This document shows positions 41,412 to 41,538 of a DNA stretch of 64,000 nt, piece after piece. Source of the stretch: a virus (Duplodnaviria; Caudoviricetes). How positions within the stretch are numbered: the stretch's first letter is position 1; every line of letters begins with the position of its first letter. The DNA lies in IMG/VR virus record IMGVR_UViG_3300020037_009644, positions 1 through 64,000 of that record. One strand, 5' to 3'. The position numbers and the translations under genes were made by a program. Under the pieces are notes generated by a model. The model ran no database searches, was not told the origin of the DNA, and was given only the letters and a program-made list of their open reading frames with translations.

Positions 41412-41538
41412 AAATCATTTGCAAAGATCAATTTAAAGTGGGCTATTTTGCGGTAGACCCCGCAGGCACAATATTACCGAACTTGATCACCGGGGCTTCA
41501 ACCGGCGCAGATTTAGTCTGCATCATTGCAAATGATTT
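41412..41538 (-). ncRNA. Candidate 127-nt end-paired structured RNA (Y-RNA-like architecture)
   Basis: Perfect 13-bp terminal stem AAAUCAUUUGCAA/UUGCAAAUGAUUU enclosing several internal helices and a UACCGCAAAA motif. Confidence 0.6.

What the first reader, a model, noticed from the sequence alone, without database searches (positions are those of the whole stretch)
41412..41538. 127-nt RNA closed by a perfect 13-bp terminal stem and carrying a fifth CCGCAAA motif (Y-RNA-like)
AAAUCAUUUGCAA pairs with UUGCAAAUGAUUU. Inside are the helices GCAGA/UCUGC, CCGG-UUGAAGCC-CCGG (loosely T-loop-like) and GAUCAA/UUGAUC, the last enclosing GGGUCUA-CCGCAAAA-UAGCCC. An alternative pairing UGCGG/CCGCA would hide the motif, which hints at a switch. 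The 5' end starts immediately after the CCA of the upstream tRNA-like element. End-pairing next to a Ro-related gene recalls Y RNAs, but the canonical bulged-C Ro-binding helix is not evident.
Basis: partly seen in the sequence, partly recalled or inferred. Interest (0 to 1): 0.75.

Follow-up and report, generated by a model that had tools for sequence, protein, structure and literature searches.

The report
Orphan folded RNA beside Ro60-like gene
A 127-base stretch in an uncultured large phage folds into a very stable four-armed RNA. It sits in a co-transcribed row of tRNA look-alikes and small Y-RNA-like hairpins just ahead of a Ro60-shaped protein gene, but it belongs to neither known Y-RNA family and has no counterpart in related phages, so its role as a protein partner is plausible and unproven.

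Summary
The described sequence is real. On the minus strand, 41538-41412 is closed by a perfect 13-bp stem and folds far better than shuffles (z -4.1). It starts directly after the CCA of a tRNA-like element and holds one ACCGCAAA core.

The Ro-related setting holds up. The adjacent DUF2828/DUF7788 protein models as a Ro60 ring plus vWA domain, and its top 11 PDB matches are all Ro60. The four small hairpins around the gene belong to a large family of stem + CAGCAA RNAs. All 141 model hits in 240 DUF2828 loci (phages, bacteria, archaea) lie on the gene's strand. This scan has already reported that family on many other genomes.

The 127-nt RNA is not a member of that family, nor of Rfam Y RNA/YrlA, nor a tRNA. 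Its motif is not next to the closing stem and is predicted to be paired (UGCGG/CCGCA, p 0.97). No homologue turned up in 99 related loci, in five whole related phage records, or elsewhere in its own 153-kb record.

Best reading (about 0.45): a lineage-specific, diverged companion RNA of the Ro60-like particle, cut out of the tRNA-like array. Rivals are a processing or insulating structure, a decaying relic, or chance.

The parts
41412..41538 (-). The 127-nt candidate RNA. It is a four-way junction: a 13-bp terminal stem (41538-41526 with 41424-41412), hairpin A at 41521-41507 (5 bp, 5-nt loop), hairpin B at 41506-41489 (5 bp, 8-nt loop), and arm C closed by 41488-41483 with 41431-41426.
   Evidence: Sequence. 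Fold z -4.1. Pair probabilities. The same fold forms inside the 401-nt precursor. Single copy in the 153-kb record.
41447..41453 (-). CCGCAAA core. The context UACCGCAAAAUA nearly equals UACCGCAAAUA of the hairpin at 39722-39678. It is predicted to be paired: CCGCA (41453-41449) with UGCGG (41464-41460).
   Evidence: p 0.97; 12-nt local match to that hairpin; whole-alignment scores not significant, 33-58 of 500 shuffles as good.
41539..41615 (-). tRNA-like element with a 7-8-bp acceptor stem, a T-arm-like hairpin and a 3' CCA, but no anticodon arm. Its CCA abuts the 127-nt RNA with no spacer.
   Evidence: Fold. Not called by ARAGORN or Rfam.
41616..41692 (-). tRNA with a 6-nt anticodon loop. 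It ends in CCA and abuts the tRNA-like element with no spacer.
   Evidence: ARAGORN 'tRNA-???'; Rfam tRNA 55.2 bits; fold.
41361..41405 (-). Stem + ACAGCAAACC hairpin (Y-RNA-like short module), 6 nt downstream of the 127-nt RNA.
   Evidence: R1 29.7 bits; fold z -3.2.
41309..41352 (-). Stem + CCAGCAAACC hairpin (short module), 23 nt before the start codon.
   Evidence: R1 26.6 bits.
41964..42010 (-). Stem + CCAGCAAACC hairpin (short module) between the HNH gene and the 77-aa ORF.
   Evidence: R1 30.6 bits.
39678..39722 (-). Stem + ACCGCAAAU hairpin (short module) just after the gene's stop codon.
   Evidence: R1 29.3 bits.
39732..41285 (-). Gene for a 517-aa DUF2828 + DUF7788 protein with the Ro60 fold (HEAT-repeat ring plus vWA domain).
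   Evidence: Pfam; PHROG 850 'RNA-binding protein', 2e-61; AF2 model; Foldseek top 11 hits all Ro60.
42983..43011 (-). Promoter-like site (TTGACA-17-TAGAAT, 11 of 12). It is the only strong one upstream of the array on this strand.
   Evidence: This is a consensus match only.
39640..39674 (-). Intrinsic-terminator-like hairpin (15 pairs plus a U run) after the last module.

Best explanation
The 127-nt element is a stably folded, lineage-specific noncoding RNA. It is made as part of one long transcript that runs: HNH gene, module, small ORF, tRNA, tRNA-like, 127-nt RNA, two modules, Ro60-like gene, module, terminator.

Its 5' end is probably created by the same cut that matures the CCA end of the upstream tRNA-like element. 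RNase P acting on the 13-bp end helix as an acceptor/T-stack mimic is one possibility; an endonuclease cut just after the CCA is another. The long end helix would then protect it from exonucleases.

It is most likely a diverged companion of the stem+CAGCAA partner RNAs of the Ro60-like DUF2828 protein. It would present, or conditionally hide, one copy of their ACCGCAAA core.

Shown: the fold, the zero-spacer junction, the Ro60 fold of the neighbouring protein, the reality of the partner-RNA family, and the RNA's place in that array. Inferred: transcription, the processing route, and any binding to the protein.
For: - The fold is far more stable than shuffles and forms on its own within the precursor.
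- A 13-bp perfect long-range stem is rare: 16 inverted repeats in 64 kb, and only four of them have arms 75 nt or more apart.
- It lies between elements that are non-coding and on the same strand, with 0- and 6-nt spacers.
- No promoter-like site lies closer than 42983-43011, and the terminator comes only after the gene.
- The neighbouring protein has the Ro60 fold.
- The four flanking hairpins belong to a family whose model hits are 141 of 141 on the gene's strand in 240 loci. It is also present in a cultured Felixounavirus, interleaved with real tRNAs, and in a Leptolyngbya phage.
- In the nearest loci a stem-closed family RNA follows a tRNA-like element after 1-3 nt, which is the slot the 127-nt RNA occupies here.
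- The core motif with flanks nearly equals that of the hairpin at 39722-39678, and the CCGC variant also occurs in a family member elsewhere (L053:4344-4457).
- One related phage has an 86-nt RNA of the same build inside its array (L004:930-1015): a 13-14-bp end stem, then a 5-bp/5-nt-loop hairpin, then two more hairpins, z -9.8. Its CAGCAAC motif is also paired.
- The overlapping plus-strand ORF has no family match.
Against: - There is no transcript evidence of any kind.
- The stem+CAGCAA model does not match it even with filters off.
- It lacks the invariant G-C/A-U start of the handle stem's consensus (it has AAA/UUU).
- It lacks the motif next to the 5' strand (UUGCAA sits there), and it lacks the GUUU trailer seen after modules.
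- Local similarity to the modules is not significant.
- A single-sequence structure model finds nothing in 99 related loci or in five whole related records.
- The motif-exposing helix has probability 0.01.
- The one structural analogue is a single case, and a search for more found none that survived inspection.
Confidence: 0.45

Rival explanations
1. It is a cis-acting processing or insulating structure rather than a partner RNA. A long duplex plus compact junction would separate the tRNA-like part of the precursor from the hairpin-and-mRNA part. It could act as a double-strand-specific nuclease site or as a barrier to 3'-5' or 5'-3' decay that protects the downstream Ro60-like mRNA.
For: - It sits exactly at the boundary between the tRNA-like block and the module-plus-gene block.
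- It has 13 perfect pairs, or 16 with one mismatch.
- It has no family signature and no conservation elsewhere, as expected of a local solution.
Against: - Thirteen to sixteen pairs is short for classical RNase III sites (general knowledge).
- Related arrays, including Felixounavirus, do without any such element.
- This reading does not explain the three well-formed inner hairpins or the motif copy.
Confidence: 0.2
2. It is a decaying relic of a duplicated partner RNA (short or tRNA-mimic-bearing long form) or of a tRNA gene. It would keep fragments of the motif and stem but have no function of its own.
For: - The outer 7 bp (AAAUCAU) resemble the stem of the adjacent module (GGAUCAC).
- UUGCAA sits where CAGCAA should be.
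- The inner GAUCAA/UUGAUC helix, motif and A/U-rich tail line up loosely with module 41405-41361.
- MAFFT places AAAAUAGCCCAC against the AUAGCUCAG D-arm start of long-form members.
- The window holds other defective tRNAs.
Against: - None of these similarities is statistically significant (33 to 363 of 500 shuffles as good).
- A relic would not be expected to keep a perfect 13-bp stem and three clean hairpins (z -4.1).
Confidence: 0.15
3. It is a chance inverted repeat, or the footprint of a small mobile element with terminal inverted repeats, in an intergenic stretch.
For: - It has terminal inverted repeats of 13-17 nt.
- An HNH endonuclease gene lies nearby.
- No homologue was found anywhere.
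Against: - It is single copy in the 153-kb record and has no clear target duplication.
- By my estimate, a 13-bp perfect repeat within 200 nt is expected about 0.2 times in 64 kb and about 0.002 times in this 700-nt non-coding block.
- The interior is also well folded.
Confidence: 0.07
4. It is a canonical Y RNA of the YrlA/Yrn type, bound through its end helix by the Ro60-like protein.
For: - The 5' and 3' ends pair.
- It is on the same strand as, and within 130 nt of, a gene with the Ro60 fold.
Against: - No Rfam hit at E<=10.
- No GNCGAA or GGUCCGA motif, no bulged helix, and no T- or D-arm (criteria from PMC4201824).
- The protein belongs to a different sequence family from TROVE: a profile of it finds no Ro60 chain by sequence.
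Confidence: 0.03

Closest known systems
Stem + CAGCAA 'handle' RNAs that accompany DUF2828 (Ro60-fold) genes. I found them neither in Rfam 15 nor in the papers searched. This scan has reported them before on many other genomes, and I re-derived them here as model R1.
   Same: - Same operon and strand.
- Closed by pairing of its own ends.
- Carries the C[A/C]GCAAA core with near-identical flanks to one member.
- Occupies the slot after a tRNA-like element that members occupy in the nearest loci.
   Different: - No R1 match.
- The stem starts AAA, not RGA.
- The motif is 85 nt in and paired, not 1-3 nt after the 5' strand.
- No GUUU trailer.
- 127 nt with three inner hairpins and no tRNA-mimic payload.
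Bacterial and phage Y RNAs with Ro60/Rsr: YrlA, YrlB and Yrn1 (Chen et al. 2014, PMC4201824), and Yrl1/Yrl2 of Thermus phage phiLo (PMC12135203).
   Same: - A small RNA with paired ends.
- Encoded beside, and on the strand of, a ring-shaped Ro60-fold protein.
- Associated with tRNA-like elements.
   Different: - No GNCGAA/CGAA motif and no embedded T- or D-arm domain.
- No Rfam match.
- The protein is DUF2828, not Pfam TROVE.
Class I RNAs of dictyostelid amoebae (PMC7919456).
   Same: This applies to the flanking hairpins, not the 127-nt RNA. They have a short end-to-end stem that covaries, a conserved motif of about 11 nt right after the 5' strand, a variable remainder, and a length of 42-65 nt.
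   Different: The paper's text does not print the motif, so I could not verify sequence identity; this is a lead from earlier notes and from my memory. The 127-nt RNA is twice as long and lacks the motif at that position.
tRNA-linked small RNAs released by tRNA-processing enzymes, such as mascRNA/MALAT1, MHV68 tRNA-miRNA units and plant tRNA-snoRNA units (general knowledge).
   Same: A tRNA-like element abuts the next RNA directly, so one cut can make both ends.
   Different: Here the CCA is encoded and the setting is bacterial. The enzyme is unknown and nothing has been tested.

Membership tests
Y RNA / YrlA (Rfam; Chen et al. 2014) | Match to the Rfam covariance models | tested here: not met
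   cmscan of 41250-41750 at E<=10 found only the tRNA and two chance matches. Nothing was found at gathering score in the whole window.
Y RNA / YrlA (Rfam; Chen et al. 2014) | GNCGAAN0-1G (bacterial) or GGUCCGA with a bulged C (animal) near the 5' end | tested here: not met
   Neither string is in the 127 nt. The criteria are taken from PMC4201824.
Y RNA / YrlA (Rfam; Chen et al. 2014) | Embedded tRNA-like domain (T-arm, acceptor-like hairpin, D-arm) | tested here: not met
   There is no GGUUCRANUCC-type T-arm and no AGCUCAG..GGUAGAGC D-arm. The alignment with 13 long-form RNAs is poor.
Y RNA / YrlA (Rfam; Chen et al. 2014) | 5' and 3' ends pair, and the RNA is encoded within 4 kb of a Ro60-type gene on the same strand | tested here: met
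   A 13-bp end stem. The gene starts 126 nt downstream on the same strand and has the Ro60 fold.
Y RNA / YrlA (Rfam; Chen et al. 2014) | Bound by the Ro60-type protein | not testable with these tools
   This needs EMSA or co-purification.
   No hit in 41406-41700 with filters off at E<=10. The four flanking hairpins score 26.6-30.6 bits, but they were among the sequences the model was built from.
   UUGCAA sits there and is paired. ACCGCAAAA starts at RNA position 85.
   It has AAA...UUU. A3-U is kept and G2-C is replaced by A-U, as in 4 of 36 aligned members.
   For the family, 141 of 141 hits lie on the gene strand.
tRNA | Cloverleaf with D-, anticodon- and T-arms recognised by tRNA finders | tested here: not met
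   ARAGORN and the Rfam tRNA model call nothing in 41412-41538. It is a four-way junction, but with a 13-bp end stem and no T or D loops.

The most novel reading that the evidence does not exclude
The 127-nt RNA may be a new, regulatory kind of partner for the Ro60-like particle. It would be a compact four-armed RNA, cut out by tRNA-processing enzymes, that keeps the protein's recognition core locked in a helix and releases it only on refolding. It would then act as a decoy or timer for loading of the ordinary handle RNAs. The 86-nt RNA L004:930-1015, whose CAGCAAC is likewise buried in a 13-14-bp end stem, would be a second member.
Probability: 0.15. Interest if true: 0.7.

Novelty: new variant of a known kind. 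Interest (0 to 1): 0.4.

Why it matters
Ro60-Y RNA particles are a conserved RNA-surveillance machine, and their phage versions are only starting to be studied (PMC12135203). The DUF2828 branch has its own, apparently undescribed, partner-RNA family. That family reaches cultured model phages such as Felixounavirus, where it can be tested at the bench.

If the 127-nt RNA binds the protein, it would show that such operons carry structurally distinct RNAs beside the standard handle. It would also give a natural example of a hidden recognition motif. If it does not bind, it is an ordinary local processing structure.

On its own merits the element is an orphan with no comparative support, so its weight is modest.

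Tried and rejected
- Rfam at a permissive threshold on the region: nothing relevant.
- Exact and degenerate DNA patterns from the RNA and the tRNA-like element in IMG/VR: no match.
- blastn of the locus against cultured phages: no match.
- Single-protein locus search in IMG/VR: none. The protein database shows a gap from 99% to 46% identity, so I ran no further search on a DNA pattern.
The 1.8-kb contig that encodes the 99% identical protein could therefore not be fetched.
- A single-sequence covariance model of the RNA (R2) against 99 loci, its own 153-kb record and five whole related records: only itself.
- Local alignment to the four hairpins with shuffles: not significant.
- Scans for long-stem four-way junctions in about 240 loci on both strands: similar counts on both strands, mostly inside genes. 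L004:930-1015 is the only convincing analogue. L177:601-724 turned out to be an artefact of a tandem repeat of a local 10-bp hairpin.
- I did not build a long-form (tRNA-mimic) model. MAFFT misaligned the closing stems, and the 127 nt plainly lack T- and D-arms.
- The plus-strand 80-aa ORF over the region has no PHROG match and overlaps the tRNA-like element, so I rejected it as a gene.
- The printed sequence of the Dictyostelium Class I motif could not be found in the papers held.

Full report
**Setting.** The window is part of a 153-kb IMG/VR virus record estimated to be 36% complete. Every feature discussed here lies on the minus strand. Read 5' to 3' on that strand, the region holds:
- a promoter-like site at 43011-42983 (11 of 12);
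- an HNH endonuclease gene at 42882-42016;
- a small hairpin at 42010-41964;
- a 77-aa ORF with no family match;
- a tRNA with a 6-nt anticodon loop at 41692-41616;
- a tRNA-like element without an anticodon arm that ends in CCA, at 41615-41539;
- the 127-nt stretch at 41538-41412;
- two more small hairpins at 41405-41361 and 41352-41309;
- a 517-aa DUF2828 + DUF7788 gene at 41285-39732;
- a fourth hairpin at 39722-39678;
- a strong terminator-like hairpin at 39674-39640.

**The observation.** The 13-bp end stem is perfect, and the listed inner helices are in the sequence.
- The RNA folds at -42.6 kcal/mol against -28.5 +/- 3.4 for shuffles (z -4.1). It adopts the same fold inside a 401-nt precursor.
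- Pair probabilities are near 1 for the end stem and for the GCAGA and GCCGG/CCGGU hairpins. GAUCAA/UUGAUC reaches only 0.31.
- The helix that would display the motif in a loop (GGGUCUA/UAGCCC) is imperfect and has probability 0.01. The 'alternative' UGCGG/CCGCA has 0.97. As far as thermodynamics goes, the motif is normally hidden.
- The exact heptamer is not enriched in the window. The looser C[A/C]GCAAA is what the four hairpins share.
- Only 16 inverted repeats with an 11-nt seed and spacing of 200 nt or less exist in the 64 kb, so a 13-bp long-range stem inside a 700-nt non-coding block is unlikely to be chance.

**The neighbour is Ro60-like.** A profile of the protein finds no solved structure by sequence. 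Its AF2 model (pLDDT 84, pTM 0.86) has Ro60 as its top 11 PDB matches, all over the full length. These include frog and human Ro60, Deinococcus Rsr and Thermus phage phiLo Ro60 (E 3e-8 to 2.5e-5). PHROG 850, 'RNA-binding protein', matches at 2e-61.

**The flanking hairpins are a real partner-RNA family.**
- Phage loci that encode relatives of the protein show, next to the gene and on its strand, RNAs with a closing stem that starts RGA and ends UCY. One to three bases follow, then hCAGCAA and a variable loop. This is the short form of 44-68 nt.
- The same handle can also enclose a permuted tRNA-like domain of T-arm, hairpin and D-arm. This is the long form of 108-140 nt, with YrlA-like architecture.
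- The stem covaries freely, although those sequences were picked for pairing.
- The independent test is strand and place. A model of the short form (R1) gives 69 hits in 80 IMG/VR loci, 26 in 80 metagenome loci and 46 in 80 bacterial or archaeal genome loci at E<=0.1. All 141 lie on the gene's strand.
- The family is also present in a cultured Felixounavirus, interleaved with real tRNAs right after the 'RNA-binding protein' gene, and in a Leptolyngbya phage.
- Rfam has no family for these RNAs, and the papers I could search describe none.
- Chen et al. 2014 searched only next to TROVE-annotated genes and defined a different motif, GNCGAA.
- This scan has already reported the family on many other genomes, so that part is not new to the scan.

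**Is the 127-nt RNA a member?** No, by every test I could run.
- R1 does not match it even with filters off.
- UUGCAA sits where CAGCAA should be, and it is paired with its palindromic twin.
- The true core lies at RNA positions 85-92.
- The trailer is CAUCUU rather than the GUUU that follows the three upstream modules and is the commonest trailer in the family.
- It has no T- or D-arm.
- Local similarity to the modules is suggestive in places: the outer stem resembles that of the adjacent hairpin, and the core with its flanks nearly equals that of the hairpin after the gene. None of it is significant.

**Is it conserved?** Not detectably.
- It is single copy in its own record.
- A structure model built from it finds nothing in 99 related loci or in five whole related phage records.
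- Exact patterns find nothing in IMG/VR.
- The protein database has no relative between 99% and 46% identity, so covariation cannot be tested at present.

**What speaks for a role is position and build.**
- In the nearest loci (L002; L020 and its near-copy L082), each tRNA-like element is followed after 1-3 nt by a stem-closed family RNA. Here that slot holds the 127-nt RNA with no spacer.
- One related phage has, between a short and a long family member, an 86-nt RNA of the same build: a 13-14-bp end stem, then a 5-bp hairpin with a 5-nt loop, then two more hairpins. Its CAGCAAC is buried in the end stem (z -9.8).
- That is one case. Broader scans for such junctions gave no further convincing example.

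**Mechanism.** I take the head-to-tail joins (tRNA-CCA | tRNA-like-CCA | 127-nt RNA) to mean that single endonucleolytic cuts release the units. RNase P does this for the first join. For the second join, either the 13-bp end helix mimics the 12-bp acceptor/T stack that RNase P needs, or another endonuclease cuts after the CCA. The released RNA would be protected by its end helix and might dock on the Ro60-like protein through the ACCGCAAA core. All of this is inference.

**Rivals.** The alternatives are a purely cis-acting processing or barrier structure, a decaying duplicate, or chance.

**Verdict.** This is a real and stable RNA-like structure in a genuine Ro60-like RNA operon. It is not a Y RNA by any definable criterion. 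It is an orphan, and its function is open.

Noticed in passing
L162 (Salmonella phage BPS15Q2, NC_031939.1) 4375-7270: In this cultured Felixounavirus the DUF2828 'RNA-binding protein' gene is followed by a stretch left unannotated in the record. That stretch holds 14 tRNAs with stem+CAGCAA RNAs between them (4712-4777, 4878-4932, 5331-5400). A long form with T-arm, hairpin and D-arm starts near 5424. This is a model system for testing the family.
   Followed up: partly
L004:930-1015: An 86-nt RNA sits between a short and a long family member. It has a 13-14-bp end stem that contains AGA+CAGCAAC paired to its complement, with three inner hairpins (z -9.8). It is the only structural analogue of the 127-nt RNA that I found.
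   Followed up: partly
window 41400-41300 and related loci: Three of the four window modules, and 39 plus-strand module candidates elsewhere, are followed by GUUU(UC). No minus-strand control candidate has that trailer. This may be a 3'-end or processing signal.
   Followed up: partly
L084:1290-1460: In a GC-rich, bacterial-looking contig two family RNAs precede the gene. In the larger one CAGCAU can pair with a downstream AUGCUG, which is another case of a possibly hidden motif.
   Followed up: no
L002:1830-2180; L020:2199-2286; L082:400-490: tRNA-like elements with odd or missing anticodon arms alternate with family RNAs ahead of the gene. This matches the window's defective tRNA and tRNA-like pair.
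   Followed up: partly
window 42289-42352 (-): A weak R1 match (14.6 bits, E 1.6) with a CAGCAAA core lies inside the HNH endonuclease ORF. It is probably chance.
   Followed up: no
window 25429-25516 (-): A tRNA-Gly(UCC) call has about 22 nt in place of a 7-nt anticodon loop (Rfam 46.5 bits). This is another aberrant tRNA in the window.
   Followed up: no
L177:540-760: A Saprospiraceae MAG has a tandem repeat of a unit that ends in a 10-bp hairpin and contains CCGCAAC paired to GUUGCGG. It lies about 360 nt upstream of its DUF2828 gene, next to a tRNA.
   Followed up: no
tblastn finds relatives of the protein in 692 cultured phage records (Felixounavirus, Staphylococcus, Listeria, Mycobacterium, Campylobacter, Vibrio and others). 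Family RNAs also flank the gene in Bacteroidota, Myxococcota and Woesearchaeota assemblies.
   Followed up: partly
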